IMG/VR virus record: IMGVR_UViG_3300020450_001133
Strand: one strand, 5' to 3'
Origin: a virus
Lineage: Duplodnaviria; Caudoviricetes
Length of the DNA stretch: 64,000 bases
The position numbers and the translations under genes were made by a program. The stretch's first letter is position 1. Each line of letters begins with the position of its first letter. The notes beneath the pieces are model-generated. The model was not told the DNA's origin. It saw only the letters and a list, made by a program, of their open reading frames with translations, and searched no databases. This document shows, in pieces, positions 6,132 through 56,464 of this stretch.

Positions 6132-6598
6132 AACAGTCCTAATTGATATTTTCCTTCATCGCTTACCATGGTATGTGGATTCCACGGTGGGTCAAATGTT
6201 AAAACTACATTAACCTTATTTACACACTCAACTGCTCTAGTGGCAAATTCTATTTCCATTGGTATGATTTCTGCCGCAGGACAATTTGGTGTAGTTAATG
6301 TAAATATGATTTGTGCATCGTACTCTTTATTTACTGCAACTTCATAAATTAAACCTAAATCATACACGTTTAAGTTCAATTCAGGATCGTACACTTTACG
6401 CAAATTTGCTATTATTTGTTCTACCAATTGATCCTGTAAATTTTCTGGGGGCTTAGGCATACTTGCTTTTTCTTCTGCCGTTGGAAGTGTTCTTGATTCA
6501 TAATCTCTACCTTGCAAGGTAGAATTTTCTTGGTCTAACTCTTCAAGTCTTGGATCAGGTTCTTTACCTACAGTTTCATCTTTTCTATCGCCTGCCAT
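6128..6598 (-). CDS. sufT: SUF system Fe-S assembly protein SufT (DUF59/MIP18 family)
   Basis: LRKVYDPEL..NVYDLGLIY...TLTTPNCPAAE...LTFDPPW. Confidence 0.85.
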   Translation of the reverse strand: MAGDRKDETVGKEPDPRLEELDQENSTLQGRDYESRTLPTAEEKASMPKPPENLQDQLVEQIIANLRKVYDPELNLNVYDLGLIYEVAVNKEYDAQIIFTLTTPNCPAAEIIPMEIEFATRAVECVNKVNVVLTFDPPWNPHTMVSDEGKYQLGLL

Positions 6599-7782
6599 AG
6601 TCCCTCAACTAATTTTACGCAATCATGTTCATCATTATATGGTGCTGAACTAACTCGTAAAATTCCTTCATTATTTGTGTATCTGTAACTTGCCGGATAG
6701 GCACACATATGACCCGTCCTTACACAAACATTTTGCATGTCTAAAAATCCTGCTAAATCACTTGGACTTGTTCCTTTTACTTTAAAACTATAAACACTAT
6801 TTGGTTTAATAGGTCCAATAAGTTCCATTTGTTCTATTTCAAATAGACCTTTGTCTTTTAACATATTAAAAAATTCTTTTTCACATTCATGAATTTCATT
6901 GTATGTGATATCTTGTATCCATTTTGCCGCCGCACCTAAACTATGAACTCCTGCTACATTAGGAGTTCCGGCTTCCATTCTTTCAGGTCCTCTTTTCAAA
7001 GTGAATGTATCAAAATCGCATTGTGTGATTGTTCCGCCACCTAACCAAGTTTGTACATCATCAAATCCGCCTTTATGATATAAAACTCCTGTGCCTGTAC
7101 TTGCATACATTTTATGTCCACTAAATGCCATCCAATCTATATCATTCTTTTTAACATCAATTGGTCTATGTCCTATACTTTGACAAGCATCTATTACAAC
7201 TTCACAGTCATGTTCTTTTGCAATCATTATCATTTGTTGCCAAGGAAGTTCTTGTCCTGTAAAATTACTTTGTGTTAAGAAACTGCAAACACTTCCTGGA
7301 TTGTCTTTTACTGTTTCATACCAAGCATTTACGTCTACATTACCTTCATCGTTACTAGGAACTATTACTAACTGCCCATTTGCTTTTGTTCTACCTTGTT
7401 GCATCCAAGGTAAAATGTTACTGTGATGTTCTACCTCAGTCATAATTACTGTTGGTTCTAACGGAGTCCAATCTGCAATTATGTTTAAACTTGCAGTTGT
7501 TCCATTTGTAAAAACAATCTCATGTGGTTCAGCATTTATAAGTTTTGCAACTTCTACTCTTGCTTCGTCATACTTGTCACTTGCAATGGTACTAGTCTTA
7601 AAGTCTCCCCTATGAACATTTGCTCTGTAATTATAATGATAATCACTAACCGCTTTGATTGAACTATCAACAGTTTGACTACTTGCGGCATTGTCCAAGT
7701 ATGTCAAATCGCTATATGCTAAACTAGGAAAACAATTCCTAATCTGTTTGATATCTTTTGCTTTTTTATAAACTTTTAACAT
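6568..7782 (-). CDS. sufS: Cysteine desulfurase SufS (group II)
   Basis: YLDNAASSQ, EHHSNILPW, FSGHKMY (PLP Lys), EAGTPN, RTGHMCA (catalytic Cys). Confidence 0.92.
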   Translation of the reverse strand: MLKVYKKAKDIKQIRNCFPSLAYSDLTYLDNAASSQTVDSSIKAVSDYHYNYRANVHRGDFKTSTIASDKYDEARVEVAKLINAEPHEIVFTNGTTASLNIIADWTPLEPTVIMTEVEHHSNILPWMQQGRTKANGQLVIVPSNDEGNVDVNAWYETVKDNPGSVCSFLTQSNFTGQELPWQQMIMIAKEHDCEVVIDACQSIGHRPIDVKKNDIDWMAFSGHKMYASTGTGVLYHKGGFDDVQTWLGGGTITQCDFDTFTLKRGPERMEAGTPNVAGVHSLGAAAKWIQDITYNEIHECEKEFFNMLKDKGLFEIEQMELIGPIKPNSVYSFKVKGTSPSDLAGFLDMQNVCVRTGHMCAYPASYRYTNNEGILRVSSAPYNDEHDCVKLVEGLWQAIEKMKL

Positions 7783-9086
7783 AAAAAACTACTTACTAAT
7801 ACGTCCTCGGCTATGTCTTTTGCTAGTCCTCGGCTCTGCAAATAATATAATTTGCTTTTATCTATATTACTTATGGTACAACCATGAGTACATTCAATTT
7901 CTTTGGTATGTATATCTAGTATGGGTCTGGAGTGCATTTTTGTATTTGGAGTCAACATTAAATTTTCGTTTTTCATATGACCATCAAATCCTACACTATT
8001 AGGACTTACATCAAATCTGCCTATAAAACTTGTACTAGCATTTTCATTTCCAACGTTCTTAATATCAATTATACTTTTGTTATCTGAACTTCTACTGTCA
8101 ACATGCACAAACTGATGATATTCATGTCCTTTGTAGATGTTGTTTCTACCATTAAGTGTTAAATCTACATTTGTGGTTAAGTCAAAATAAAAGTTTTCTT
8201 GATAGTAGTCTGATCCTGTGTTTTTAAAATTTACAGTTATCTTACTGTTAGGGTGGCAAATAAATTTGCTATCAAATACACCGAAGCCTCCATAATCGTT
8301 TGTAATTCTATCTATAACCAGTTCACTGTTTTCTCTAACAATGTAGATTATATTGTTCATTTGTCCAGATTGTAATTTTACATTCTCTTTTAAATGAACT
8401 TTTGTTTTGTGTTGTACATCTATAATGTTTGTATTGCATTCTAAAATACCTTTAGAATTCTTATTTAGATATTGAATACTAATTGGATTCTTCATAAAGT
8501 TTCCATTAGCACCAGATGGAACAATCACAGTATTTAAAAAAGGTGAGAATGCGTATGTAAAATTAGAAAAGTTTTCTGTCCTTCTTATTAGTTTTACATA
8601 TTCATCTTGCTTGTTCCTGTTTACTTTTATTTGGTCTAAAATTTGTAATTGGAAAGGTTTCTTAACTCCTAAGTCGTTGCTAGGATAAAGTATTCCGTCA
8701 TTAAACAATAATGTATTCTTTTTAAATGCTACTTGTTCAAATGGTTCTAGGTCTGCAAGATAATTTTTTTCATTGGGCTCACTTGACCAAAGTATTTCTT
8801 TATTGTAAAGTTTGTGTAAGTTTGCAAAGTTGAATTGTTCAGATTTACTATCAGGCAAGCCTATTTTACTAATGTATTCTACATTATTGTTATAGCCGTT
8901 ATAAAAATTATTTAATTTATGTTTAAGATGATGAAAGTCTCTTGTTTTTGTATTCTCACCTATAACATAATCATAAAGGTCTTTGATAGTGTAATAACTA
9001 TCAAACTCATTTGTAGGTTCTAATGTTTCTCTGTAGAATAAATTTTTATACACTTTCAAACCCTTGACTAAATATTTTGTTTGCAA
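7776..9086 (-). CDS. sufD: Fe-S assembly protein SufD (divergent N-terminus)
   Basis: C-terminal NENLML..SRPILDI..ECTHGCTISNID..LYYLQSRGL; lies between sufC and sufS. Confidence 0.8.
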   Translation of the reverse strand: MQTKYLVKGLKVYKNLFYRETLEPTNEFDSYYTIKDLYDYVIGENTKTRDFHHLKHKLNNFYNGYNNNVEYISKIGLPDSKSEQFNFANLHKLYNKEILWSSEPNEKNYLADLEPFEQVAFKKNTLLFNDGILYPSNDLGVKKPFQLQILDQIKVNRNKQDEYVKLIRRTENFSNFTYAFSPFLNTVIVPSGANGNFMKNPISIQYLNKNSKGILECNTNIIDVQHKTKVHLKENVKLQSGQMNNIIYIVRENSELVIDRITNDYGGFGVFDSKFICHPNSKITVNFKNTGSDYYQENFYFDLTTNVDLTLNGRNNIYKGHEYHQFVHVDSRSSDNKSIIDIKNVGNENASTSFIGRFDVSPNSVGFDGHMKNENLMLTPNTKMHSRPILDIHTKEIECTHGCTISNIDKSKLYYLQSRGLAKDIAEDVLVSSFLC

Positions 9087-9741
9087 GTTCTATATCGCCT
9101 GATAGAACTCCATCCTTCTTCAATACTAATACTTTGTCTGGGTTTAACCCTTCAACTAATTTTTGATAATGTGTAACAACAATCAAAGTGTTATTATCAT
9201 TACGCCATTCATTGAGTTGTTCTATTAATGCTTTTATTCCATCTACATCTAATCCACTGTCTGGTTCATCAAGCATTGCCAATTTGGTATTAAGCATACT
9301 CATTTGTATGAGTTCATTTTTCTTTTTCTCACCACCACTGGCGTCTGTGTTAAGGTTTCGTTTATCCCAATTATCAGGCAAGTTAAGTTTTGCACTTACT
9401 TCTTTAAAATTTCTTAATGTTTCTGCTATATCTTTTCCTGATATATTTAATGCCTGTTTCATAAACTGAAAGTTACTTAAACCAGGTACACTTGTTGGTG
9501 CTTGGAAACCTACAAACATTCCTAGTCTTGCTCTTTCATCTGTTTCTAACTCTGTAAGGTCACTACCCATAAAAGTCATTTCGCCAGATACATTAAGGTC
9601 AGGTCTTCCCATGATGCCATGTAATAGGGTGCTTTTACCTACACCATTACTTCCCATCACCACATAAGTTTTGCCAATGTCGAAAGTCGTACTGACATTG
9701 TCAAGTATATGTTCTACAGAAAAATCTTTTAATTTTAACAT
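9046..9741 (-). CDS. sufC: Fe-S assembly ABC ATPase SufC
   Basis: GSNGVGKST Walker A, FQAP Q-loop, SGGEKK signature, LDEPDSGLD Walker B, VVTHY. Confidence 0.92.
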   Translation of the reverse strand: MLKLKDFSVEHILDNVSTTFDIGKTYVVMGSNGVGKSTLLHGIMGRPDLNVSGEMTFMGSDLTELETDERARLGMFVGFQAPTSVPGLSNFQFMKQALNISGKDIAETLRNFKEVSAKLNLPDNWDKRNLNTDASGGEKKKNELIQMSMLNTKLAMLDEPDSGLDVDGIKALIEQLNEWRNDNNTLIVVTHYQKLVEGLNPDKVLVLKKDGVLSGDIELANKIFSQGFESV

Positions 9742-9747
9742 GCCGAT

Positions 9748-9776
9748 ATTATACTACCTTTTAGGTATTAAGTCAA
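9748..9776 (-). promoter_or_regulatory. sigma70-type promoter internal to the suf cluster
   Basis: TTGACT-17-TATAAT; sufC ATG 6 nt after the -10, no SD. Confidence 0.8.
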
Positions 9777-9778
9777 TA

Positions 9779-11236
9779 TTATCCAACTGCCCCTTCCAGT
9801 TGTACAGCCAACAATTGATTGGCTTCTGCGGCAAACTCTAATGGTAGTTTTTGGAATACGTCTTTACAAAATCCATTCACTACCAAATTCATTGCATCAT
9901 CTTCACTGAATCCTCTAGTTGCAAGATAATACATTTGTTCTTCACTAATTTTTCCAGCACTTGCTTCATGCTCTATCATAGCACTATCATTTTGGCTAGT
10001 TACATAAGGAATTGTTAATGCTCTACTATCTTGTAACATTAAACTATCACACTTTGTATAGTTAGACGCATTTTTGGCTCCTGGATTAACTTTTACTGAA
10101 CCTCTATATGTATTTGTGCTGTCTCCAAAACTTATACCTTTGGATATAATGGTACTTTTGGTATTCTTACCTAAGTGTATCATTTTTGTTCCTGTGTCTG
10201 CTTGTTGTTTGCCTTTTGTTACTGCAACACTAAAGAACTCTCCAATACTACCTTCACCTTTTAAAATGCAACTTGGATATTTCCAAGTTACTGCTGAACC
10301 TGTTTCTACTTGGGTCCAACTAACTTTACTATTTTTGCCTTCGCACTTTGCACGTTTTGTTACAAAGTTATAAACACCACCTACTCCATCTTCATTACCT
10401 GGATACCAATTTTGTACTGTGGAGTATTTTATTTCTGCATTGTCTTTAGTAATTAATTCTACACAGGCGGCATGTAATGTATTCTCATCATATGCTGGTG
10501 CAGTACAACCTTCTAAGTAACTTACATAACTATCTTCGTCTGCTATTATTAATGTGCGTTCAAACTGACCTGTGTTTCTTGCATTTATTCTAAAGTATGT
10601 GTTTAGTTCCATAGGACATGAAACACCTTTAGGGATATACACAAAAGTACCGTCTGTGAATACAGCAGAGTTCAGTGTAGCAAAGTAATTGTCTGTGTAA
10701 GGTATCACACTACCTAAGTATTCTTTAACTAGTTCTTCGTGGTCTTTTACTGCTTCACTAATACTGCAAAATACAATGCCATGCTTCTTTAATTCTGCTT
10801 GGAATGTTGTAGCAACACTAACACTATCAAAGACAGCATCAACGGCTACTGTTGGTATAAGATTTTCTTTTTTTGGTTTTTCTGTATCAAGTCCTAGTAA
10901 GGCATCACGTTCATGCAAAGGAACACCTAACTTTTCAAATGTATCTAAAATCTCTTGTGGTATTTCGTCTTTGTTTCTAGTCTTAGGTGCTGAGTAATAA
11001 CTTAATGCTTGGTAGTCAACAGGGTCATAATCAAGTTCACTCCAATTGGGCTCACTCATCTGCTCCCATCTTTTGAATGCTTTTAGTCTAAATTCAAGTA
11101 ACCATTCTGGCTCATCTTTGAGCATACTGATATTTTTAATAATATCTTCATTCAAACCCGTGGGGAATGTTTCGTTTTCTAAATCAGTTACGAATCCTTC
11201 TTTGTAATATTTGTCGTTAAAATTATCAATACTCAT
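9779..11236 (-). CDS. sufB: Fe-S assembly scaffold SufB
   Basis: [58 protein letters not shown]. Confidence 0.96.
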
Positions 11237-16897: not shown

Positions 16898-17325
16898 TAG
16901 AAGTTACCACGACTTCTCTGCATAGCGGCTATCCTTTCGTTGTATTCTCTTACTCGCCTTGTTTTACGTTTGGACTTCATCCATTTTTGACCAGTGGGCA
17001 TGTATTGTTTAAAATCGCCTCTTGCTTCGGCTTCTCTAACATACTTGTCCCATCTCTTTTTGGCTTGTTTCTTTTTACGATTTCTTTTTGCACTAGGCTT
17101 TTCGTAATATTGTTGCTTTGCTAATTCCTTTTGGAATTCTGCTTTTTCTAATCTCTTTTTCAAAACTCTTAATGCCTTATTCACGTCGTTGTTTCGAACT
17201 TCAATAGAACTATTGAATTTGTCCAGATAATGTTTATCTTTCTTAGGTTGTTCTTTCCTTTTATTGGAGTTCCAACCTTGCGTTATCTTTCTACTTTGCT
17301 GTCTGCCTTGCGATTTATTACTCAA
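16897..17325 (-). CDS. rpsU: Ribosomal protein bS21 with N- and C-terminal basic extensions
   Basis: IEVRNNDVNKALRVLKKRL...YYEKPSAKRNRKK core. Confidence 0.82.
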   Translation of the reverse strand: MSNKSQGRQQSRKITQGWNSNKRKEQPKKDKHYLDKFNSSIEVRNNDVNKALRVLKKRLEKAEFQKELAKQQYYEKPSAKRNRKKKQAKKRWDKYVREAEARGDFKQYMPTGQKWMKSKRKTRRVREYNERIAAMQRSRGNF

Positions 17326-18590
17326 CTTTTACCTCTAATTTTTATTTTATAATCTTTATCCGATTTTTCATTACCGTTAGTATAAACGAAAACAGGGTAA
17401 GTGTCAACATCTTTTGTTGGATATTTGTTGAATCTCACCGTTTTGACCCCATTTTCTTTTAGTTTAGGTGCTCTGTACATAATGTTGTGTAAACTGTTTT
17501 CTACTATGGATTTTAATCCTCTAGCACCAGTTTTTGTTTTACTAGCCAGTTTTGATATATCATCTATGTACTCATCATTAAACTCTAATTCTATATCATC
17601 AAACTCTAAAAGTTTTTTAACTTGTGGAATAACACTTGCTTTTGATGATTTTAAAATTGTTTTCATATCGGATTGTGATAATGGTTCTAAAGGTACAATG
17701 TTTGGTAATCTACCAACAAGTTCTGGAATGAGACCATAACTGATTAAATCGTCATGCTCTACTTTGTGTTGCCAATTGTCTTTTTTGGTTGTTGATTTTA
17801 ATTGTTTGTTGAATCCTATGTTCTTTTTGTTTGCCTTAGTGTTTATTTGTTTTTCTAAACCTACAAATGCACCACTACATATAAACAATACATTTGTTGT
17901 ATCAAACTCTACATATTGGTCCATACGTTTTGAACCGTTAGAAGATACTTTAACTACTGTACCTTCAATTAATCTTAGGAGTGCTTGTTGTACACCTTGT
18001 CCACTAATGTCCTTTGTGCCGGTGTTAGACTCGCCCTTACGAGCCTTTTTATCTATTTCATCTATGAATACAATACCTTTTTGTGCTAGTTCTAAGTTCC
18101 AATCGCACATATTAAGTAAACGTTCAAGCATACTTTCAACATCTTCCCCAACATAACCTGCTTCTGTTAATGTTGTAGCATCAGCAATAGCAAAAGGTAC
18201 ACTTAATTTATCTGCAAGTGTCTTTGCTAATAAAGTTTTACCTGTTCCTGTATTACCCAATATAATAATGTTACTTTTTTCTATATCAGTTTCACTATCA
18301 TTGTAAATTGTTTTGTAATGATTGTATGCACATACAGATAATATTTCTTTTGCATACTCTTGGCTAATTACATATTCATCAAGATGTGCTTTGATTTCTT
18401 CTGGAGTTGGGATATCTTCGAAGGATAAGTCTTCTAATGTATCTTCTTCATTGATAATTTTATGACTGATGTTAATACATTCGTTACAGATGTAAGAATT
18501 AGGACCTGCTATTAACTTTTTTACTTCAGTTCGCTTTTTACCACAAAAACTACAACTTAGATTTTGTTCGTTGTCTCTATCACCGGGCAT
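17322..18590 (-). CDS. clpX: ATP-dependent unfoldase ClpX
   Basis: CSFC..CNEC Zn domain, GNTGTGKT, EAGYVGEDVE, FIDEIDK, GVQQALL, IGF loop, TGARGL. Confidence 0.95.
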   Translation of the reverse strand: MPGDRDNEQNLSCSFCGKKRTEVKKLIAGPNSYICNECINISHKIINEEDTLEDLSFEDIPTPEEIKAHLDEYVISQEYAKEILSVCAYNHYKTIYNDSETDIEKSNIIILGNTGTGKTLLAKTLADKLSVPFAIADATTLTEAGYVGEDVESMLERLLNMCDWNLELAQKGIVFIDEIDKKARKGESNTGTKDISGQGVQQALLRLIEGTVVKVSSNGSKRMDQYVEFDTTNVLFICSGAFVGLEKQINTKANKKNIGFNKQLKSTTKKDNWQHKVEHDDLISYGLIPELVGRLPNIVPLEPLSQSDMKTILKSSKASVIPQVKKLLEFDDIELEFNDEYIDDISKLASKTKTGARGLKSIVENSLHNIMYRAPKLKENGVKTVRFNKYPTKDVDTYPVFVYTNGNEKSDKDYKIKIRGKS

Positions 18591-35697: not shown

Positions 35698-36637
35698 TCT
35701 TTAATCCGCAAAAACTACAATTTTTATGTACTGGTGTATATACTATATATCCTCTTACCGGACAACGGTGTGCCCAAAATGAAGGACTTGGGACAGAATT
35801 ACTCACTAACTCCTCAGCCATAATCCCCCAAAACTTTCCTGCTTTTGGTCCTTTATTTTTCTTACCATCGCTTTCTCCTGGTATCTTTACCCACAAAAAA
35901 GCATCACATTTTTCTACTTTTGTATCACATGTTGGTTTAATACCTAATGCTCTGCCAGGTGGATTACACCATTCGTTGCCCAACGGACCATTACCATTTC
36001 TACTTGTATCAATAACAAAACAGTCATTAGGTCTATGCTCACATACTTTTAAACTCCATTCCATGGATTCATCTGTGCTTCTGTAGTTGCTTACATTTAC
36101 CGCAAATCCTCTTACTTTGTCGTTGTTTACAAAGTTTAAAAGTTCTGCCGCTTCTTTAGGACTTAACCAATTACTATGACCTATATCAGTGTAAATGTAT
36201 GCATCGCTTTCTTCTGTAAGTATTTCTAAACCTTCTTTGATTAAATTTAATCTAAAGTCAGCATCTTGTTTATCCATTTGTGTTGTATGAGGTAATGCAT
36301 CTGGTTCAAATATTATTATAGGTTTATGGCCCTTTATACCCTCACAGAACTCGTGTAAGAACAATAAGTATTCAGTTGCACCTTTGGCACCACCTTTACT
36401 GTAATGACCCATATCTCTATTGGGTAAATTGTATATCACAAAATAAGGTAAGTTTGGTGCAGTTCTTTTAAGGAATCTTTTAAGACTATGCTCTAGTTTC
36501 TTTATAGATTTACCTTTTTTAGAACCATACCAAAATGCTACTGGTTGTTCAAATATTTTACTAGATAAGGGAAAGTTTATTCTGTGGTCTTTGACTCTGT
36601 CAAAATCATTTACCCAGAAAGGATAATCAAGTGCCAT
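35681..36637 (-). CDS. Glycoside hydrolase family 6 (cellulase-like)
   Basis: YNLPNRD, FEPDAL, GFAVNVSNY, IDTSRNG, WCNPPGRALG, FLWVKIPGESDG. Confidence 0.9.
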   Translation of the reverse strand: MALDYPFWVNDFDRVKDHRINFPLSSKIFEQPVAFWYGSKKGKSIKKLEHSLKRFLKRTAPNLPYFVIYNLPNRDMGHYSKGGAKGATEYLLFLHEFCEGIKGHKPIIIFEPDALPHTTQMDKQDADFRLNLIKEGLEILTEESDAYIYTDIGHSNWLSPKEAAELLNFVNNDKVRGFAVNVSNYRSTDESMEWSLKVCEHRPNDCFVIDTSRNGNGPLGNEWCNPPGRALGIKPTCDTKVEKCDAFLWVKIPGESDGKKNKGPKAGKFWGIMAEELVSNSVPSPSFWAHRCPVRGYIVYTPVHKNCSFCGLKNDRSI

Positions 36638-37178
36638 CTTGTATTTTTTGCAAGGCTAAATCTGTTTGCAGTATTTTAAACTGTTTATCACGTTTTTTAA
36701 TTGCACGTTTTAGTTTTAAATCACTTGCATATTCCAAATACAATTTGCCTTGTAAATGGTCAAATTCATGTTGGAAACACCTTGCATCCATTCCGTCTAA
36801 CCAATCTTCTACAACTTGTTGGTCATGTGTTTGAAATCTTACTTTTACTTTTGCAGGTCTTGTTACAATAAAATATAACAAAGGAAATGTTAAACAGCCT
36901 TCTTCCATGCCAACTGTTTCTTCACTGAACTCTAGTATTTCAGGATTATAAACTCCAATGTCTTCTCCTGTGGATAATGTCATAACAAACATTCTATACC
37001 CCATTCCTAATTGAGGTGATGCTAGTCCAATACCAAACTTATCTTTCATAAGTTGTATCATTTCATCTTGTCGCTTTTCCCAATCTACATCTTTTTCATC
37101 AAATGGATTTACACTTGCAACAGTATGTAAAGCAGGATTTTTTGGTTCTACTAATTCTATTTTAAATTCGTCTGACAT
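36627..37178 (-). CDS. def: Peptide deformylase
   Basis: GIGLASPQLG, EGCL, QHEFDHLQG. Confidence 0.95.
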   Translation of the reverse strand: MSDEFKIELVEPKNPALHTVASVNPFDEKDVDWEKRQDEMIQLMKDKFGIGLASPQLGMGYRMFVMTLSTGEDIGVYNPEILEFSEETVGMEEGCLTFPLLYFIVTRPAKVKVRFQTHDQQVVEDWLDGMDARCFQHEFDHLQGKLYLEYASDLKLKRAIKKRDKQFKILQTDLALQKIQDGT

Positions 37179-38750: not shown

Positions 38751-38779
38751 ATTATATGCAATTTAAGGGTGAATGTCAA
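38751..38779 (-). promoter_or_regulatory. sigma70-type early promoter
   Basis: TTGACA-17-TATAAT. Confidence 0.8.
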
Positions 38780-38806: not shown

Positions 38807-38881
<75 letters not shown>

Positions 38882-38886
38882 ATGAG

Positions 38887-38962
38887 TGGAGCTCGGAAGA
38901 GGATTCGAACCTCCGACCTGAGGTTTACAAAACCCCTGCTCTACCAACTGAGCTATCCGAGC
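38887..38962 (-). tRNA. tRNA-Thr (UGU)
   Basis: GCTCGGA acceptor, TAGCTCAGTTGGTAGAGC D-arm, TTTGTAA loop, TTCGAAT, encoded CCA. Confidence 0.95.
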
Positions 38963-38966
38963 CCGG

Positions 38967-39092
38967 ATTAGTAAGTATAGTACACTTAAGGACTTTGCTG
39001 GGCACGGTCTTGTTATCAACTCTAAATATCGTGGTGTGTTTTACCACACAACCCCACCTAATATACGAAATACCACTCGGATACTTACTAAT
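38967..39092 (-). ncRNA. Candidate 126-nt structured ncRNA heading the tRNA transcript
   Basis: 12-bp perfect terminal helix ATTAGTAAGTAT/ATACTTACTAAT; 5' end coincides with the predicted +1. Confidence 0.55.
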
Positions 39093-39098
39093 ATGTTT

Positions 39099-39126
39099 AT
39101 TATACTGATTATGAATTAAATGTCAA
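39099..39126 (-). promoter_or_regulatory. sigma70-type promoter of the ncRNA-tRNA unit
   Basis: TTGACA-16-TATAAT. Confidence 0.8.
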
Positions 39127-39371
39127 GAACTTTGTTTGACTTCGCTGAATGCATGTTTGAGTTTTATTTGTTCTACAAACTCTGATATGTTGTCTATTTC
39201 TTCTAGTTTTATTAATGCTTCTTTAGGAGTCATCTCTCCTACTCTTGCTACTGTGGTTGCTAAATTTATTAAATCGTGTCTACCTATATTATGCTTTTGA
39301 CAGATTACTTGAACATCAGGTTCTTTTTGCTCTTGCTGGTCTTGTGATTTTATTCTAGTAATTTTTGGCAT
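39123..39371 (-). CDS. Hypothetical protein
   Basis: 82 aa coupled ORF. Confidence 0.5.
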   Translation of the reverse strand: MPKITRIKSQDQQEQKEPDVQVICQKHNIGRHDLINLATTVARVGEMTPKEALIKLEEIDNISEFVEQIKLKHAFSEVKQSS

Positions 39372-43983: not shown

Positions 43984-44423
43984 TATAACTCTGACAAATA
44001 CTTGTCCAGTCTGTCTTTATTCATCACAAATGATTTACCGTATTGTCCTGCAAATCTTTTGGTTGCATCATCAACAGTTGCATTGCCAACTTTGATAACA
44101 CCTACCATTGCCATCATTTTATGAGGTGTACATTCATACACATAAACACCTTCAGTGTTTAATGTTACTGAAATGTCTTTGCTCATTGCACCTTTCCAAG
44201 GTGTTGCTCCTGCAGGAGTTAATACTGAAGCGGAGTTATGTGCCATATCCGTTGCTTCAAATTTAACTGTATCTCCGACATTTACAGATAATACAGCAGG
44301 TTCAAAAATCATCATGCCGCCTGCACCGTTGTTTAACATTTTTACTACATGCTCAGCCGCAAAGGTTGGAGCAGATAACATTAACATTAAGAATGCAGTT
44401 GCTATTTTGTGTGTGTTTTTCAT
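43983..44423 (-). CDS. Pseudoazurin-like blue copper protein
   Basis: Signal peptide; VKMLN..FEPA..GDTV..HNS..YECTPH..MVG (H,C,H,M ligands). Confidence 0.88.
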   Translation of the reverse strand: MKNTHKIATAFLMLMLSAPTFAAEHVVKMLNNGAGGMMIFEPAVLSVNVGDTVKFEATDMAHNSASVLTPAGATPWKGAMSKDISVTLNTEGVYVYECTPHKMMAMVGVIKVGNATVDDATKRFAGQYGKSFVMNKDRLDKYLSEL

Positions 44424-45589
44424 TTTATCTCCGGTAATGGATTTCTTGATCCAACTGCTTGTTCAATTGAATCGAATCCGTCTTTTTTAAGTAATTTAAC
44501 TAATCCTCTATTAATTTCATTAATGTTTTGAGGACCGTCAAATATCATTGTTGTAATCATGTGTAGTAAACTAGCACCAGATGTTATTTTCTCATAAGCA
44601 TCTTTGGCACTAAAAATACCACCAACGCCTATTATAGTTATCTTTCCTCTAGTTCTTCTGTACACATGTCTGATAACATTTGTAGAAATACGTTGTAATG
44701 GCAATCCACTCATTGCACCTTTACCTTTGGGTAGCAATCCTTTTTCAGTTGGATATTCCTCTGGTCTATGCTCTGAATTGTATTGTGGTTTTGCAAGGTT
44801 TGTACATACTACACCGTCCATGCCATGTTCAATACAACCATCTACAATGATGTCTATTTCATCTAATGTCATATCAGCCGCAAGTTTTACATAAATTGGT
44901 TTATCACTTATCGGTCTAATTTCTTCGTTTATCCTAGTTAATAATGCATCTAGGTTTTTCTTGTCTACAAATGGTTCACCGTCTTGCGTATTAGGACAAC
45001 TGATGTTTACATCATAGTAGTCACCAATATCTACAAACAGTTTCATTGTTTTCAAGTAATCGTTGATAGACATCTCTAGGTCAAACTCAGGTGTTAGGTT
45101 TGAATTAGCCGCATTGATACCAACACGAAGTCTTCCAAAATCTTCACCTGCTAATCTTTTAGATATTTTTTCTGATCCTTCGTTGTTTAGTCCATACCAT
45201 ACAACGATTGCTTTTGACTTAATCATTCTAAATAATCTTTTACCTGGATTACCTGGGCATATCTCACCTGTGAATGATCCTAGTTCAGCAAGTCCAAATC
45301 CAATTGACGGATATATTTTTGTTAATTCTCCGTCTTTATCAAATCCAGCAGAAAGACCTACAGGGTTTCTATAGTCTATACCGTCTACTGTGATTGCTAA
45401 ACTCTTGTCGTTGTAATCCATTAAAAGACTTGTTAGTCCTCTTGTTATTGGATTACTTCCTAACAACACACCCATACGTTTTAATGAATAGTGTGCTTGT
45501 TCTGGTTCCATTAAAAATATTAATGGTCTAATGGCTCTAAATCCTAACCATAGAATCTTATTTCTGATTCCTACTATAAAGTTTTTCAT
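44420..45589 (-). CDS. pyrD: Dihydroorotate dehydrogenase, class 2-like (quinone-dependent)
   Basis: EPEQAH, NPVGLSAGFDKDG, GLNNEG, NISCPNT, VKLAAD, GAMSG, IGVGGI, GASL. Confidence 0.92.
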   Translation of the reverse strand: MKNFIVGIRNKILWLGFRAIRPLIFLMEPEQAHYSLKRMGVLLGSNPITRGLTSLLMDYNDKSLAITVDGIDYRNPVGLSAGFDKDGELTKIYPSIGFGLAELGSFTGEICPGNPGKRLFRMIKSKAIVVWYGLNNEGSEKISKRLAGEDFGRLRVGINAANSNLTPEFDLEMSINDYLKTMKLFVDIGDYYDVNISCPNTQDGEPFVDKKNLDALLTRINEEIRPISDKPIYVKLAADMTLDEIDIIVDGCIEHGMDGVVCTNLAKPQYNSEHRPEEYPTEKGLLPKGKGAMSGLPLQRISTNVIRHVYRRTRGKITIIGVGGIFSAKDAYEKITSGASLLHMITTMIFDGPQNINEINRGLVKLLKKDGFDSIEQAVGSRNPLPEIK

Positions 45590-52988: not shown

Positions 52989-54089
52989 TTAGAGAGAAAA
53001 ACCTTTAAATGTATCGTTATCAACGTCTTGTTTTGTGCCGCCAATAACATAACTGCTTATTTCAGTCTCTTGTGGAGCAACTTGAACACTACCGCCTGTA
53101 ATCCATGCTTGGGTCCAAGGTAAAGGATTTGTTCCTGTGTTAAAAGGTGTTTCTAATTGTACTGCTCTCATTCTTTTACCTGCAATATATTCTATATATT
53201 GCTTTAACAGTTCTGCATTTAGTCCTATAATACTACCGTCTTTAAACAAATAATCTGCCCAGGCTTTTTCTTGCTCAACTGCATCCATAAACATACCAAT
53301 AGATTCTTCTTTTAATTCTTTTGCTATCTTTACATAGTCTTTATCATCTTTAGGCAGAAGTTTTAGCATTTGTTGTGTACTTGCTAAATGAACGTTTTCA
53401 TCTCTAGCAATTAGTTTGATAATTTTAGCATTACCTTCCATTTTTTTAAGTTCAGCAAATGCCCAACTACAAGCAAATGAAACATAAAAACGTACACCTT
53501 CTAATATGTTTACACTCATTAAACATCTGTACAATGCTTTTTTATGTTCGTATTCATTGTAACTTTGTAAGCCACGTTCTCTTGCTTGGTTTTGTTCGAT
53601 TAATTTGTCATAGTTTTCTGTAATTGCATCTGAGCAATCTGTTATTTCTTTAATGCTTAACATTTCATCAAATACTTTACTTGGATCTGGGTACACATTT
53701 CTTATTATGTGCGTATAACTTCTACTGTGAATAGTTTCTGAGAATGCCCAAGTTTCAATCCATGTTTCTAATTCAGGAACACTAACAACAGGCAACAATG
53801 CTAAATTAGGTGAACGACCTTGTACACTATCTAATAGTATTTGTCTTTTTAGATTGCTTGTAAAAATATGTTGTTCAAAGTCAGTTAGTTCTTTAAAGTC
53901 TTTTGCGTCTTTTAAAATATCAACTTCTTCAGGTCTCCAAAAGAAACCAAGTTGCTTTTCAGTTAATTTTTCAAACTGCTTATATTTAACAACATCAAAT
54001 CTTTGTACACCTGGCCCGCCACCAGAGTCCAAAAACATTTTTGCTTTTGTATGATGTGTTTTATTTTTTGCATCAAAAACTGAACTCAT
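52989..54089 (-). CDS. nrdB: Ribonucleotide reductase class Ia beta subunit
   Basis: FFWRPEE, LDSVQGR, ETIHSRSY, EGVRFYVSF, DENVH, APQETE. Confidence 0.97.
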   Translation of the reverse strand: MSSVFDAKNKTHHTKAKMFLDSGGGPGVQRFDVVKYKQFEKLTEKQLGFFWRPEEVDILKDAKDFKELTDFEQHIFTSNLKRQILLDSVQGRSPNLALLPVVSVPELETWIETWAFSETIHSRSYTHIIRNVYPDPSKVFDEMLSIKEITDCSDAITENYDKLIEQNQARERGLQSYNEYEHKKALYRCLMSVNILEGVRFYVSFACSWAFAELKKMEGNAKIIKLIARDENVHLASTQQMLKLLPKDDKDYVKIAKELKEESIGMFMDAVEQEKAWADYLFKDGSIIGLNAELLKQYIEYIAGKRMRAVQLETPFNTGTNPLPWTQAWITGGSVQVAPQETEISSYVIGGTKQDVDNDTFKGFSL

Positions 54090-56395
54090 TATATTTTACA
54101 ACTCTCGCAATCATCATCTTCTAGTAATGGTGAAACATTACCAGACTCTATAAACTGCACTTGGGCAGTTTCTTCTTTGTTAATATCTATCTCACCTTGT
54201 CCATCGTGAGTATTATTATAGTATAATTGTTTACCACCATATTTATAAAACATTACTAGGTGTTGTAACAACATACTCATAGGCACTTTCTCATCTTCGA
54301 AGTGCTCTGGATTGTATGATGTATTTACCGAAATACCCTGGTCAATGTACTTTTGAAGAATGGACATTATCTTCAAATACCCTTCAGGTGACTTCTGTTC
54401 CCAAAGTAAATCATACTTGTTTTTCAATCTTGGAAAACCTGGTACTACTTGTTTTAACACACCATGTTTGCTTTGCTTAATACTAACATAACTTCTTGGT
54501 GGTTCAATACCATTTGTACTGTTACTAATCTGTGCTGATGTTTCTGCAGGCATCAATGCCATTAACGTACTATTTCTAATACCAGTTTCTTTAAGTTGTT
54601 TTCTTAAACTTTTCCAGTCAGCACGTTCTTGATGTTTTACTAATTCATCAACATCTTTCTTGTATGTCTGATTAGGAGTAATACCCAAACTGTATTTAGT
54701 CTCATCGGACTTAGGACATGCTCCTTTTTCAACTGCCAAGTCTGCACTTGCTTTAATTAAGTAATAACTCCATGCTTCAGTCCAAGTATCTACCATTTCC
54801 AAATTTGGTTCTTGGTATGTGCTATCATTTTTTGCCATCCAATATGCAAAGTTTATGATACCAATTCCTAATGGGCGTCTATTCATTGTGCTAACTCTTG
54901 CCGCTTCAATAGGATATTCTTGGTAGTCCAGAAGTTCATCTAATGCTCTAACAGCCAAATCGCAAACTTTTTCCATTTGCTCTAAACTTTTAATGGCACC
55001 CCAATTAACCGCACTCAAAGTACATAGGCTAATTTCGCCATTAGGGTCATCTATATTTGTTAAAGGTTTAGTTGGCAAATCAATTTCACAACATAAATTA
55101 CTTTGTTTGATTGGGGCAACATCTTCAATGAAAGAACCATGTGTATTAGCATGGTCCACATTTTGTAGATAAATTCTACCTGTGTCTTTTCTTTCTTGAA
55201 CAAAGTTGCTGAAAAGTTCTACTGCTGGTATTGATTTTTTCCTAATGCTAGTTTTTCTTTCTGCCGCTTCATAAACTTCTTTAAACTTATCTTGGTCAGT
55301 AAAGAAAGCATCATAAACTTCTGGTACATCATTAGGGGAGAATAATGTAATATTACCACCTTCAATTAATCTTTCATACATCAATTTGTTAAACTGTACA
55401 CCATAGTCCATATGACGTACTCTGTTATCTTCTGTTCCTTTATTATTCTTTAACACTAGCATATCTTCAATTTCTAAATGCCAAATAGGATAATAAAGTG
55501 TAGCCGCTCCGCCTCTTACACCACCTTGACTGCAAGACTTAACTGCTGATTGAAATAATTTATAGAAGGGGATAACGCCTGTATGTGTTGCATCTCCACT
55601 CCTAATCTTAGAACCAATTGCTCTAATTCTTCCTGCTCCAATTCCAATACCTGCTTTCTGCGATACATATTTAACAATACTGCTACTTGTTGCATTAATA
55701 CTGTCCAAACTATCATCTGTTTCAATAAGTACGCAACTACTAAATTGTCTTTGTGGTGTTCTAACACCTGCCATTACAGGTGTAGGCAAACTAATTAAAA
55801 ACTTACTAATTGCATCATAGTAGTCTTTAATATATTTCATTCTTTTTTCAACAGGATATTTTGCAAACAATGTTGCGGCAATCATCATATATGCAACTTG
55901 TGGTGTTTCAAATATTTCACCTGTTGCTCTATTTTGTACTAGATACTTTCCACGGAACTGTTCCATAGCCGCATAAGTAAGATATTCATCTCTGCTATGG
56001 TCTATATAACTTTGTAATTCATTAATATCATCTTTAGTAAACAACTCTACAAATTCAGGGTCATAAAATCCTGCATCAATATTGTCTTGAACAATATCAC
56101 ATAAGCAAGGTGGTGTAAATGTATTATATACTTGCTTACGCAAATGATAGTTAATTAATCTACCTGCTACATATTGATAGTTTGGTGTTTCTTCTGATAT
56201 AAGGTCTGCGGCACTTTTAATAAGTGTTTCTTGAATGTCTTCTGTTTTAATTGAATCAAAGAATTGAATTTGTGAATTTATCTCTACTTGTGAAGCACTT
56301 ACACCAGTAATGTCCTCACAAGCATACATAACGACTTTATGCAATTTATCAATGTTTAAATCTTCTAGTCGTCCGTCCCTTTTCTGTACCTGCAT
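54089..56395 (-). CDS. nrdA: Ribonucleotide reductase class Ia alpha subunit with ATP cone
   Basis: VQKRDG, SSCVL, QGGVRGG, SNLCCEI, LMPAETS, KQLYY, CESC; start reassigned to MQVQKRDG. Confidence 0.97.
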   Translation of the reverse strand: MQVQKRDGRLEDLNIDKLHKVVMYACEDITGVSASQVEINSQIQFFDSIKTEDIQETLIKSAADLISEETPNYQYVAGRLINYHLRKQVYNTFTPPCLCDIVQDNIDAGFYDPEFVELFTKDDINELQSYIDHSRDEYLTYAAMEQFRGKYLVQNRATGEIFETPQVAYMMIAATLFAKYPVEKRMKYIKDYYDAISKFLISLPTPVMAGVRTPQRQFSSCVLIETDDSLDSINATSSSIVKYVSQKAGIGIGAGRIRAIGSKIRSGDATHTGVIPFYKLFQSAVKSCSQGGVRGGAATLYYPIWHLEIEDMLVLKNNKGTEDNRVRHMDYGVQFNKLMYERLIEGGNITLFSPNDVPEVYDAFFTDQDKFKEVYEAAERKTSIRKKSIPAVELFSNFVQERKDTGRIYLQNVDHANTHGSFIEDVAPIKQSNLCCEIDLPTKPLTNIDDPNGEISLCTLSAVNWGAIKSLEQMEKVCDLAVRALDELLDYQEYPIEAARVSTMNRRPLGIGIINFAYWMAKNDSTYQEPNLEMVDTWTEAWSYYLIKASADLAVEKGACPKSDETKYSLGITPNQTYKKDVDELVKHQERADWKSLRKQLKETGIRNSTLMALMPAETSAQISNSTNGIEPPRSYVSIKQSKHGVLKQVVPGFPRLKNKYDLLWEQKSPEGYLKIMSILQKYIDQGISVNTSYNPEHFEDEKVPMSMLLQHLVMFYKYGGKQLYYNNTHDGQGEIDINKEETAQVQFIESGNVSPLLEDDDCESCKI

Positions 56396-56435
56396 GTGTT
56401 TTCCGTATTTGTATCTATGTTTTAGTTTAAGTATC

Positions 56436-56464
56436 ATTATACAACAGAATGTTGAATAAGTCAA
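56436..56464 (-). promoter_or_regulatory. sigma70-type promoter of nrdAB
   Basis: TTGACT-17-TATAAT. Confidence 0.78.

What the first reader, a model, noticed from the sequence alone, without database searches (positions are those of the whole stretch)
38967..39092. Unassigned 126-nt RNA transcribed first in the tRNA operon
Seen: the sigma70 -10 at 39099-39104 predicts +1 at about 39092, exactly the first base of a perfect 12-bp terminal helix whose partner ends 4 nt before tRNA-Thr. The interior has GUGUG-GUAAAA-CACAC, CACG/CGUG and GUU-GAU-AAC stems, and it is not a cloverleaf and has no ORF. RNase P cleavage at the tRNA-Thr 5' end would release it. Inference: a discrete new phage ncRNA, such as a decoy for anti-phage nucleases or a 6S-like mimic.
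Basis: partly seen in the sequence, partly recalled or inferred. Interest (0 to 1): 0.7.

Follow-up and report, generated by a model that had tools for sequence, protein, structure and literature searches.

The report
New marine-phage structured small RNA family
The 126-nt stretch is a real gene for a small folded RNA that belongs to a large, uncatalogued RNA family found only in uncultured marine phages, usually made just ahead of a phage tRNA-Glu gene; what it does is still unknown.

Summary
Observation confirmed. A perfect sigma70 promoter (TTGACA-16-TATAAT) puts +1 at the first base of a perfect 12-bp helix that closes 4 nt before tRNA-Thr. That helix alone is about what chance gives, and the fold energy is unremarkable (z -0.7). 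The proof is comparative. About 100 distinct homologues were recovered from IMG/VR and metagenome contigs, and none from 185,579 prokaryote species genomes, INPHARED cultured phages or Rfam 15. All 8 closing-helix pairs covary (98% paired), and two core pairs covary without exception (A-U/C-G 81:14; G-C/A-U 71:25). G-U outnumbers A-C 49:4, so the structure is RNA on this strand.

The fold is a rod. Its 3' strand is almost fully paired. Its 5' strand carries two near-invariant bulges (NCGRRU and UUCGUAN), which may pair with each other as a pseudoknot. The cap varies from 5 to 74 nt.

There is one copy per contig. 39 of 69 lineages have a tRNA downstream, nearly always tRNA-Glu(UUC). Others are followed by a U-run or a conserved box. 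In 17 of 67 lineages a consensus promoter ends 5-8 nt before the helix.

Best reading (0.45): a discrete, abundant early RNA that binds a conserved partner in trans. A new ribozyme class, a cis-acting end module and an aptamer remain open. The 6S-like and tRNA-like readings fail. First readers of this scan flagged homologues in two other genomes.

The parts
39099..39126 (-). Consensus sigma70 promoter: -35 TTGACA 39126-39121, 16-nt spacer, -10 TATAAT 39104-39099. It overlaps the last codons of the upstream ORF.
   Evidence: 12/12 match. Promoters of at least 11/12 end 5-8 nt before the helix in 17 of 67 lineages with distinct P1.
38967..39092 (-). The whole RNA element (126 nt), a member of the new family.
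   Evidence: CM R1 scores 82.8 bits, E 2e-16, with a single hit in the window. 100 homologues are aligned in A5.
39081..39092 (-). P1, 5' arm (12 nt).
   Evidence: Perfect complement of 38967-38978. All 8 inner pairs covary across 96 distinct sequences, 98.2% paired.
39075..39080 (-). J1, the 6-nt 5'-strand bulge CCGAGU (family consensus N-C-G-R-R-U).
   Evidence: In the parsed set, C is kept in 94/95 and G in 95/95, although neither was part of the metagenome search pattern.
39070..39074 (-). P1a, 5' strand GGUAU.
   Evidence: Pairs with 38979-38983. The pair A22-U111 covaries to C-G (81:14, 1 exception) and G19 pairs with U or C (58:38).
39063..39069 (-). J2, the 7-nt 5'-strand bulge UUCGUAU (family consensus UUCGUAN).
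   Evidence: Near-invariant even when left free in search patterns. Its UUCG can pair with the CGAR of J1 (97% pairable, no double changes).
39057..39062 (-). 5' strand of P2 and its 3-bp extension: AUU + AGG.
   Evidence: Pair A34-U104 covaries with G-C (25:71, no exception). Extension pairs are AU 96; UG 93 / CG 3; UA 82 / UG 8 / AU 1.
38992..39056 (-). P3, the optional variable domain (65 nt here). It has a base helix UGGG/CCCA, hairpin P3a GUGUG-GUAAAA-CACAC (39049-39034) and helix P3b CACG/CGUG (39033-39030 with 39006-39003). It ends in the conserved AAAG-U.
   Evidence: P3a and P3b covary in 24 relatives. In other lineages the domain is replaced by a 5-nt loop UNNAU or by other inserts of 21-74 nt.
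38979..38991 (-). 3' core CCU-UA-AGU-GUACU: P2 3' strand, 2-nt bulge, P2-extension 3' strand, P1a 3' strand.
   Evidence: GUG and AC are invariant. It was not part of any collection search pattern (the parsing regex did require it). The covariation is as given for the 5' partners.
38967..38978 (-). P1, 3' arm.
   Evidence: In a ~93% relative seen in an RNA library the outermost pair is deleted on both sides.
38963..38966 (-). 4-nt spacer CCGG between the RNA and tRNA-Thr.
   Evidence: The spacer to the first tRNA is 1-11 nt in most tRNA-adjacent members.
38887..38962 (-). tRNA-Thr(UGU). Its 5' maturation would create the 3' end of the RNA.
   Evidence: ARAGORN and Rfam, 70.5 bits.
38807..38881 (-). 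tRNA-Glu(UUC), the tRNA that accompanies the family in 52 of 54 tRNA-linked members.
   Evidence: 30 of 53 IMG/VR loci with this tRNA-Glu carry the RNA.
39123..39371 (-). 82-aa ORF directly upstream, a frequent but not obligatory neighbour with a weak likeness to RNA polymerase omega.
   Evidence: Homologues end 0-33 nt from P1 in most of the 19 (of 52) lineages that carry one.

Best explanation
Window 38967-39092 (minus strand) is a gene for a discrete small structured RNA. It belongs to a previously uncatalogued family that is confined, as far as these searches reach, to uncultured marine phages.

Shown:
- The RNA folds into a rod closed by P1, whose sequence is free but always paired.
- The 3' strand is almost completely paired, in the order P1a, a 3-bp P2 extension, a 2-nt bulge, then P2.
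- The 5' strand carries two near-invariant bulges, J1 (NCGRRU) and J2 (UUCGUAN).
- The tip is either a 5-nt loop (minimal form, 58 nt) or a variable P3 domain. In the window P3 is a 65-nt three-way junction.
- There is one copy per phage contig.

Inferred:
- In this phage the RNA is the first product of a consensus host-type promoter. It is therefore made early and abundantly by host RNA polymerase.
- Its 3' end is set by RNase P cutting at tRNA-Thr 4 nt downstream. In other lineages the same RNA is ended by a U-run terminator instead.
- J1 and J2 probably pair with each other across P1a (CGAR with UUCG). That would give a compact H-type pseudoknot whose invariant face is a binding surface.

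Most likely mode of action (inferred, not shown): the mature RNA acts in trans. It binds, and thereby sequesters or redirects, one conserved partner. The most probable partner is a protein of the host's RNA/tRNA-processing, transcription or translation machinery, or of a defence system. The RNA does not appear to regulate the gene next to it.
For: - Family and structure: 34 IMG/VR stretches match a 20-nt core pattern.
- P1 is 98.2% paired and 8 of 8 pairs covary. P1a is 99.8% paired, with AU:81 / CG:14 at one pair. P2 is 100% paired, with GC:71 / AU:25. For cells paired and for the covariation score, 0 of 500 shuffles reach the observed value, and the slid controls collapse to 38-53% paired.
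- The P2 extension keeps pairing through one- and two-sided changes.
- RNA strand: 49 G-U pairs against 4 A-C in 73 distinct P1 helices.
- Selection: a ~93% relative has 47 substitutions in the flanks and none between 38969 and 39090. It also has a paired deletion of the outermost P1 base pair.
- Discreteness: at least 11/12 sigma70 promoters end 5-8 nt before P1 in 17 of 67 lineages spanning four insert types. The spacer to the next tRNA is 1-11 nt in 40 members. In the short-P3 lineages a 14-22 bp P1 is followed by a U-run.
- Autonomy: there is a single copy in each of five contigs of 63-259 kb and in the window. No neighbouring protein family is constant. About 40% of lineages have no tRNA nearby.
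- Phage-only: 0 true members in 185,579 species genomes and none in INPHARED.
- Novelty: no Rfam family matches, even at E<=10 on the minimal form.
Against: - No partner is identified, and no experiment or read-level RNA data show the mature species or its ends. Only assembled contigs were available.
- The invariance of the 5' core is partly built into the search patterns, although each part was left free in at least one scan.
- The J1:J2 pseudoknot has no compensatory double change, and 10 of 96 sequences break its third pair.
- A trans-acting RNA that binds a host factor might be expected to mimic a host RNA, yet nothing similar exists in host genomes.
- In about half of the tRNA-linked lineages there is no promoter. 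The RNA directly follows the stop codon of an ORF, which fits a 3'-UTR role as well as it fits a free RNA.
Confidence: 0.45

Rival explanations
1. It is a new class of small self-cleaving (or otherwise catalytic) RNA. The pseudoknotted invariant core is an active site, P1 and P3 are scaffolds, and cleavage helps to separate the RNA from the upstream mRNA or the downstream tRNA.
For: The anatomy is typical of small ribozymes. It has a compact core of invariant bulge and junction nucleotides, freely covarying helices, a dispensable peripheral hairpin and a 58-nt minimal form. The genomic contexts are heterogeneous and lie in phages. There is a precedent for ribozymes next to phage tRNAs: the theta ribozymes, proposed for tRNA 3'-trailer processing (PMC10879173).
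Against: No known ribozyme family matches. About 28 invariant positions is more than most small ribozymes need. RNase P and terminators already define the ends. No conserved candidate cleavage dinucleotide outside the helices could be singled out. No read-level data show a cleavage site.
Confidence: 0.15
2. It is a cis-acting end module. As a structured cap at the 5' end of tRNA precursors or the 3' end of mRNAs, it protects the transcript from exonucleases or helps processing of the adjacent tRNA-Glu/Thr.
For: It always lies at a transcript boundary. It starts at +1 of a promoter, sits directly after the stop codon of an upstream ORF, sits 1-11 nt before a tRNA, or merges with a terminator. 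52 of 54 tRNA-linked members have tRNA-Glu downstream.
Against: A generic stabiliser or processing signal should recur many times per genome, yet there is one copy per contig, even in 259 kb. Protection needs only a helix, not ~28 invariant unpaired nucleotides. About 40% of lineages have no tRNA nearby, and 23 of 53 loci with the same tRNA-Glu lack the element.
Confidence: 0.15
3. It is a ligand-binding aptamer (a riboswitch-like sensor or a sponge for a small molecule or ion). Its pocket is formed by the two invariant bulges.
For: The number and placement of invariant nucleotides, the P1-closed pseudoknot architecture and the optional peripheral stem resemble small aptamers. In the window clade the 3' core can alternatively pair with J2 as a 7-bp alternative helix, a possible switch.
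Against: There is no consistent downstream gene and no expression platform. The element often precedes tRNAs, which a riboswitch has no reason to control. The alternative helix is not kept family-wide: 70 of 96 sequences break one pair and 15 of 96 break another. No known riboswitch class matches.
Confidence: 0.1
4. It is a 6S-like or other RNA-polymerase-directed RNA, perhaps working with the omega-like protein encoded just upstream.
For: It is made from a perfect consensus promoter. The adjacent 82-aa ORF family gives RNA polymerase omega subunits as its best, though weak, fold matches (Z 5.1-5.6), and 3 of 23 members hit TIGR00690 rpoZ, best E 0.0013.
Against: At 58-126 nt, with 3-12 bp helices and one-sided bulges, it cannot mimic an open promoter the way the ~180-nt 6S RNA does. 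There is no Rfam 6S match. The omega-like gene is absent from four of five large contigs that carry the RNA.
Confidence: 0.04
5. It is a decayed or highly derived tRNA (or T-armless tRNA-like molecule) that occupies a slot in the tRNA array.
For: J1 plus P1a reads like a class-II tRNA D-arm/loop (CCGAGUGGUA; from memory of tRNA sequences). The minimal form is 58 nt with a closing 'acceptor' helix, and the element sits where a tRNA would sit.
Against: ARAGORN finds nothing in bacterial mode and only 1 spurious hit in 38 in mitochondrial mode. The Rfam tRNA model does not match it. The 'anticodon arm' is 3 bp with a 5-nt loop, or is replaced by up to 74 nt. There is no T-arm and no CCA. The strong purifying selection on non-tRNA features argues against decay.
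Confidence: 0.03

Closest known systems
Phage T4 small stable RNAs, species 1 and 2 (rnaC, rnaD), in the T4 tRNA cluster
   Same: They are phage-encoded RNAs of about 120-140 nt with unknown function. They are annotated inside a tRNA gene cluster, only 1-6 nt from the neighbouring RNA genes (annotation in NC_000866). That they are cut out of a tRNA co-transcript is my recollection of the T4 literature.
   Different: There is no sequence or structure homology: CM R1 with filters off finds nothing at rnaC/rnaD beyond a partial 5.5-bit match at noise level. The T4 RNAs lie at the 3' end of the cluster, whereas this RNA lies at its head. This family also occurs away from tRNAs.
HDV-like theta ribozymes next to phage tRNAs (PMC10879173)
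   Same: They are small pseudoknotted RNAs of Caudoviricetes that are physically coupled to tRNA genes.
   Different: Theta ribozymes are proposed to process tRNA 3' trailers, while this RNA is 5' of the tRNA. Its two ends pair with each other, which the HDV fold does not do. No HDV-type Rfam family matches. Catalysis is untested.
Y RNAs / bacterial YrlA with Ro60 (Rsr) (Rfam RF02553)
   Same: The 5' and 3' ends form a long stem of free sequence, next to a conserved bulged helix and a variable module. In phages these RNAs are often found among tRNA genes. A CCGAGUG string recalls vertebrate Y RNA stems (from memory).
   Different: The YrlA model scores only 15.6 bits against a gathering score of 69, and that match lies mostly on tRNA-Thr. 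No TROVE/Ro60 gene was found in five contigs of 63-259 kb that carry the RNA (the contigs are fragments).
6S RNA
   Same: It is an abundant small RNA made by host polymerase that acts by sequestering a protein. That is the same logic as the best explanation here.
   Different: The size and architecture differ (see the rival explanations). There is no family match.
Orphan structured RNA motifs from comparative genomics of metagenomes (Weinberg/Breaker motif sets, PMC2864571, PMC5737381)
   Same: It is the same kind of evidence: a covarying motif from metagenomic and phage sequence with no assigned function.
   Different: This motif is not among the 4227 Rfam 15 families that hold those sets. 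A full-text search for its core strings finds nothing relevant.

Membership tests
tRNA (RF00005) | Cloverleaf with D, anticodon and T arms; recognised by ARAGORN or the Rfam tRNA model. | tested here: not met
   ARAGORN and Rfam call only tRNA-Thr and tRNA-Glu in the window. For 38 short members, ARAGORN gave 0/38 in bacterial mode and 1/38 (spurious) in mitochondrial mode.
Any Rfam 15 family (4227 models) | A covariance-model match at or near the gathering score. | tested here: not met
   Nothing was found at gathering score. At E<=10 only noise overlaps the element, on either strand (opposite-strand Plastid-psbM, 20.3 bits vs 52.7; YrlA, 15.6 vs 69, lying mostly on tRNA-Thr). Nothing was found on the 58-nt minimal form.
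6S RNA | About 180 nt, with a long helix interrupted by a large central bubble that mimics an open promoter. | tested here: not met
   The RNA is 58-126 nt, its helices are 3-12 bp and its bulges are one-sided. There is no 6S match.
Y RNA / YrlA-Ro60 particle | A match to RF02553, and a Ro60/TROVE gene in the same genome, usually adjacent. | tested here: not met
   The match is 15.6 bits against 69 and is misplaced. PF05731 is absent from five RNA-bearing contigs. These are 25-73% complete, so absence from the whole genomes is not proven.
HDV-like / theta ribozyme | A nested double pseudoknot with the cleavage site at the extreme 5' end, lying 3' of a tRNA. | tested here: not met
   The ends pair with each other, the element is 5' of tRNAs, and there is no Rfam HDV match.
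Self-cleaving ribozyme (any class) | Site-specific self-scission. | not testable with these tools
   Only assembled contigs of RNA libraries were available. No ends could be read.
Riboswitch | An aptamer followed by an expression platform, upstream of a consistent functional set of genes. | tested here: not met
   The downstream feature is a tRNA (39 of 69 lineages), a U-run, a conserved box or something else. The alternative helix is not conserved. Ligand binding itself is untested.
Intrinsic terminator | A G+C-rich stem directly followed by a U-run. | tested here: not met
   The window has an A+U-rich P1 followed by CCGG and a tRNA, and no terminator was called there. The feature is met only in the short-P3 lineages with a 14-22 bp P1.
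T4 rnaC/rnaD | Homology to T4 species 1 or species 2 RNA. | tested here: not met
   cmsearch with filters off over T4 69.0-76.0 kb gives a best score of 10.6 bits elsewhere and only a partial 5.5-bit, noise-level match within rnaC.
The new family itself (model R1) | P1 + NCGRRU + GGUM + UUCGUAN + AUU-RGG ... CCY-NN-NGU-GKACY + P1'. | tested here: met
   The window scores 82.8 bits, and every core position follows the consensus.

The most novel reading that the evidence does not exclude
The invariant pseudoknotted core is a catalytic or ligand- or protein-capturing centre of a kind not yet described. It would be either a new class of small ribozyme, or a phage 'RNA effector' made in bulk at the onset of infection to neutralise a conserved host factor, such as a tRNA-directed defence nuclease or a component of the transcription machinery. 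It would be carried as a single-copy gene by a wide range of large marine phages.
Probability: 0.25. Interest if true: 0.9.

Novelty: categorically new. Interest (0 to 1): 0.72.

Why it matters
Very few phage-encoded small RNAs have a known role. Here is one with about 100 distinct natural variants, textbook covariation, a 58-nt minimal form and some 28 near-invariant nucleotides. It is carried as a single-copy gene by abundant uncultured marine phages and by no sequenced bacterium or cultured phage searched here.

Conservation of this kind normally means catalysis or recognition of one specific partner, so the RNA is a direct handle on an unknown step of phage-host interaction in the ocean. 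Its small size and its consensus E. coli-type promoter make it immediately testable by self-cleavage assays, in-line probing and pull-downs.

It also gives annotators a model for a recurrent 'empty' spacer at the head of phage tRNA arrays. First readers of this scan flagged the same spacer independently in other genomes.

Tried and rejected
- Thermodynamics: the MFE z-score is -0.70 for the window RNA, and -0.15 to -2.26 for six other members. This is not evidence either way.
- Rfam at permissive thresholds on three regions: nothing.
- blastn of the element against INPHARED at E<=10 with three different members: only chance 24-27-nt hits outside the core.
- Two scans of 185,579 species genomes: 0 and 5 pattern hits. 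The 5 score at most 22.9 bits and lack the 3' core and P1, so they are chance.
- RNA-seq: six runs on record as RNA were listed as holding some of the stretch's words. The four laid were kept as contigs only. One contig of a ~93% relative bridges ORF, element and tRNA. The other three runs give no cover of the element. No starts, ends or strand could be read, so neither expression level nor processing is shown.
- J1:J2 hairpin or pseudoknot: 97% pairable but without compensatory changes. It is kept as a hypothesis.
- Alternative 7-bp helix (J2 with the 3' core) proposed by RNAalifold for the window clade: two of its pairs fail in 15 and 70 of 96 sequences, so it is rejected as a family feature. 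Its three P2-proximal pairs are retained as the P2 extension.
- 11-nt tetraloop-receptor, k-turn, loop-E and T-loop readings of the core: compared by eye only, none fits, and all were dropped.
- Readthrough or frameshift stimulator after the upstream stop codon: rejected. There is no conserved downstream frame, the window has a promoter in between, and tRNAs follow.
- DNA-level cruciform or opposite-strand RNA: rejected by G-U 49 against A-C 4.
- Constant protein partner: all-against-all clustering of 1872 flanking ORFs found none shared by all contexts. The upstream ORFs of the other context types are unrelated to the 82-aa family.
- DNA ligase lies within 3 kb in 15 of 52 lineages of all context types. 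I read this as synteny rather than function, and did not test it.
- A weak second CM hit in L342 (16.9 bits) lacks P2 and lies in what looks like coding sequence, so it is chance.
- Literature: full-text searches for the core strings and for marine-phage RNA motifs found no description of this RNA.

Full report
WHAT IS IN THE WINDOW

On the minus strand the order is as follows:
- an 82-aa ORF at 39371-39123;
- a perfect sigma70 promoter that overlaps the end of that ORF (TTGACA 39126-39121, 16 nt, TATAAT 39104-39099);
- the 126-nt element at 39092-38967;
- the spacer CCGG;
- tRNA-Thr(UGU) at 38962-38887;
- tRNA-Glu(UUC) at 38881-38807;
- a second perfect promoter at 38779-38751;
- a 172-aa ORF.

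The first and last 12 nt of the element are perfectly complementary.

Two such 12-nt inverted repeats occur in the 64-kb window, about what its A+T-rich composition predicts by my estimate. The folding energy is ordinary (z -0.70). Two mechanical ORFs overlap the element but run into the tRNA.

HOMOLOGUES

The flanking 172-aa protein led to 67 related viral loci. Only those that also carry tRNA-Thr/Glu or tRNA-Glu matched the element. That alignment exposed a conserved 5' core.

An exact-pattern scan of IMG/VR with 18 specified bases of that core returned 34 stretches. In these, a core CCGAGUGGUAUUUCGUA(A/U)AUU(G/A)GG and a second core CC(C/U)NNNGUGUAC(U/C) are flanked by arms of entirely different sequence that always pair. 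A covariance model (R1) recovered further members from several sources:
- relaxed patterns that freed each part of the 5' core in turn;
- a scan anchored on the phage tRNA-Glu rather than on the element.

In total 100 matches were aligned, of which 96 are distinct.

No member exists in one genome for each of 185,579 bacterial and archaeal species, in 50,697 cultured-phage records, in T4's tRNA region or in Rfam 15. The runs that hold the window's sequence are marine metagenomes.

STRUCTURE

- Closing helix P1: all eight inner pairs covary, 98.2% of cells are paired, and the helix is 5 to 22 bp long (median 11).
- P1a: GGUAU pairs with GUACY just inside P1', 99.8% paired. Its fourth pair is A-U in 81 sequences and C-G in 14, with one exception. 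The switch is seen in several insert types, so it happened more than once.
- P2: G-C in 71 and A-U in 25, with no exception, including one lineage (L271) outside the window's clade.
- P2 extension: beyond a 2-nt 3' bulge, P2 continues for three more pairs that keep pairing through U-to-C, A-to-G and one double change.
- Overall shape: the 3' strand of the core is thus almost fully paired. The 5' strand carries two bulges, J1 (N-C-G-R-R-U) and J2 (U-U-C-G-U-A-N), that hardly ever change.
- Possible pseudoknot: CGAR of J1 can pair with UUCG of J2 across the P1a strand, which would make an H-type pseudoknot. 97% of cells are pairable, but only one-sided changes occur and 10 of 96 sequences break the third pair, so this remains a hypothesis.
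- Tip: either a pentaloop UNNAU (58-nt minimal RNAs) or an inserted P3 domain of 21-74 nt that ends in AAA(U/G)-U.
- Window clade: P3 is a three-way junction. The third stem (GUU/AAC) is not conserved.
- Strand: G-U pairs outnumber A-C 49 to 4 in P1, so the structure is selected in RNA of this strand.
- Selection: a ~93%-identical relative captured in an RNA library has 47 substitutions in the flanks, none inside the element, and a compensatory deletion of the outermost P1 pair.

CONTEXT

Counts are by distinct P1 (69 lineages):

| Downstream feature | Lineages |
|---|---|
| tRNA within 25 nt | 31 |
| tRNA within 420 nt, with another uncatalogued structured RNA in between in several of them | 8 |
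| Conserved CCCUUUAUAAUAUAUA-like box, then ORFs | 11 |
| U-run directly after a long G+C-rich P1 (terminator-like) | 6-8 |
| Other | about 10 |

- The first tRNA downstream is Glu(UUC) in 39 sequences, Thr(UGU) in 14 and Trp in 1. Of the 54 tRNA-linked sequences, 52 have tRNA-Glu within 420 nt.
- Conversely, 30 of 53 IMG/VR loci with this tRNA-Glu carry the element.
- In 17 of 67 lineages a promoter matching at least 11 of 12 consensus positions ends 5-8 nt before the first base of P1.
- In many other tRNA-linked lineages the element starts at the stop codon of an ORF.
- Each of five contigs of 63-259 kb has exactly one copy, as does the window. CheckV estimates these five records at 25-73% complete, which implies genomes of roughly 350 kb.
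- No protein family is a constant neighbour.
- Close relatives of the window phage that lack the tRNAs also lack the element. Homology with them resumes at about the 3' end of tRNA-Glu.

INTERPRETATION

Shown: a real, strongly selected, phage-specific RNA family with a defined secondary structure, of which the window holds a full member.

Strongly inferred: in this phage the RNA starts at 39092 and is released by RNase P cleavage at 38962.

Several facts point the same way: one copy per genome, changing neighbours, invariant unpaired nucleotides on one face, and ends set by whatever lies next door (promoter, tRNA or terminator). Together they suggest an autonomous RNA that recognises one conserved partner, not a regulator of the adjacent gene and not a generic processing or stability signal. 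I therefore favour a trans-acting, partner-binding small RNA (0.45).

A new self-cleaving ribozyme (0.15), a cis-acting end module (0.15) and a small-molecule aptamer (0.10) cannot be excluded with these tools. A 6S-like polymerase mimic (0.04) and a derived tRNA (0.03) are unlikely. The persistent tRNA-Glu linkage may be functional or may reflect common descent of a cassette. The data do not decide.

COMPARISON WITH KNOWN SYSTEMS

Functionally, the nearest precedents are T4's species 1 and 2 RNAs (an analogous setting in a tRNA cluster, no homology) and the theta ribozymes beside gut-phage tRNAs (opposite side of the tRNA, different topology; PMC10879173). The Y RNA/Ro60 idea was raised by earlier notes of this scan for other phage tRNA-array RNAs. 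It was tested and not supported: there is no YrlA match and no TROVE gene in five contigs.

VERDICT

The interpretation 'new discrete phage ncRNA' is supported, while its proposed functions are not. The family is new to the catalogues searched and its mechanism is open. First readers of this scan had flagged homologous ~113-nt RNAs at the head of tRNA clusters in two other genomes.

Noticed in passing
window 39123-39371 (- strand); alignment A4: The 82-aa ORF just upstream of the RNA belongs to a ~75-85-aa helical family (motif IGRHDL..A..VAR). This family precedes the RNA in 19 of 52 lineages. It has no Pfam, PHROG or PDB sequence match, but its AlphaFold model (pLDDT 75) gives bacterial RNA polymerase omega subunits as the top recurring fold hits (Z 5.1-5.6, 54-57 residues aligned). 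Three of 23 members hit TIGR00690 rpoZ (best E 0.0013). It may be a phage-encoded omega-like protein. A literature search found no description of one.
   Followed up: partly
L086:9505-9618, L084:3695-3814, also L259, L286, L312, L320, L346, L364, L373: A second uncatalogued structured RNA of about 105 nt lies between the element and tRNA-Glu in several lineages. It carries conserved AAUAGGGG, CUCGGGUAAGGGACAGG and CACAAUUUAGU blocks, and a covarying stem (GGUCUGC/GCAGACC against GGUUCAC/GUGAACC). There is no Rfam match. Its start recalls the P13/P14 region of E. coli RNase P RNA, but that is from memory and untested.
   Followed up: partly
window 38751-38779 (- strand): A second perfect 12/12 sigma70 promoter (TTGACA-17-TATAAT) lies directly after tRNA-Glu and drives the 172-aa ORF. 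These are the only two perfect matches in the 10 kb scanned. Homology to tRNA-less relatives (L001-L007) starts at about the tRNA-Glu 3' end, which marks a mosaic boundary.
   Followed up: partly
window 6568-11236, 17322-18590, 36627-37178, 44420-45589, 54089-56464: The phage carries an unusual set of host-like genes: two SufB/SufD-like proteins, a class-V aminotransferase (SufS-like), a ClpX-like ATPase, peptide deformylase, dihydroorotate dehydrogenase and the RNR large subunit. Completeness estimates for related contigs imply genomes of about 350 kb.
   Followed up: no
L100:10330-10350, L188, L261, L077 and other members with the 35-nt P3: In one sub-group the RNA is always followed within 1-6 nt by a conserved box, CCCUU(U)AUAAUAUAUAUAG. 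In the loci checked the box occurs at most once, directly after the RNA, and nowhere else. It may be a promoter for the next gene or a 3' extension of the RNA.
   Followed up: partly
L346:6959-7013: A close relative of the L086 RNA lacks the N-C-G of bulge J1 and has U-G instead of U-A in P1a. It still sits behind a consensus promoter. It is either a tolerated variant or a decaying copy, and would be useful as a natural mutant.
   Followed up: no
L072:2178-3296, L093:10411-11766, L070, L084, L209 and others: An ATP-dependent DNA ligase gene lies within about 3 kb of the RNA in 15 of 52 lineages across all context types. In L093 a YqeY/GatB-like (tRNA amidotransferase-type) gene lies 1.3 kb upstream. 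Whether this is synteny or function is not resolved.
   Followed up: no
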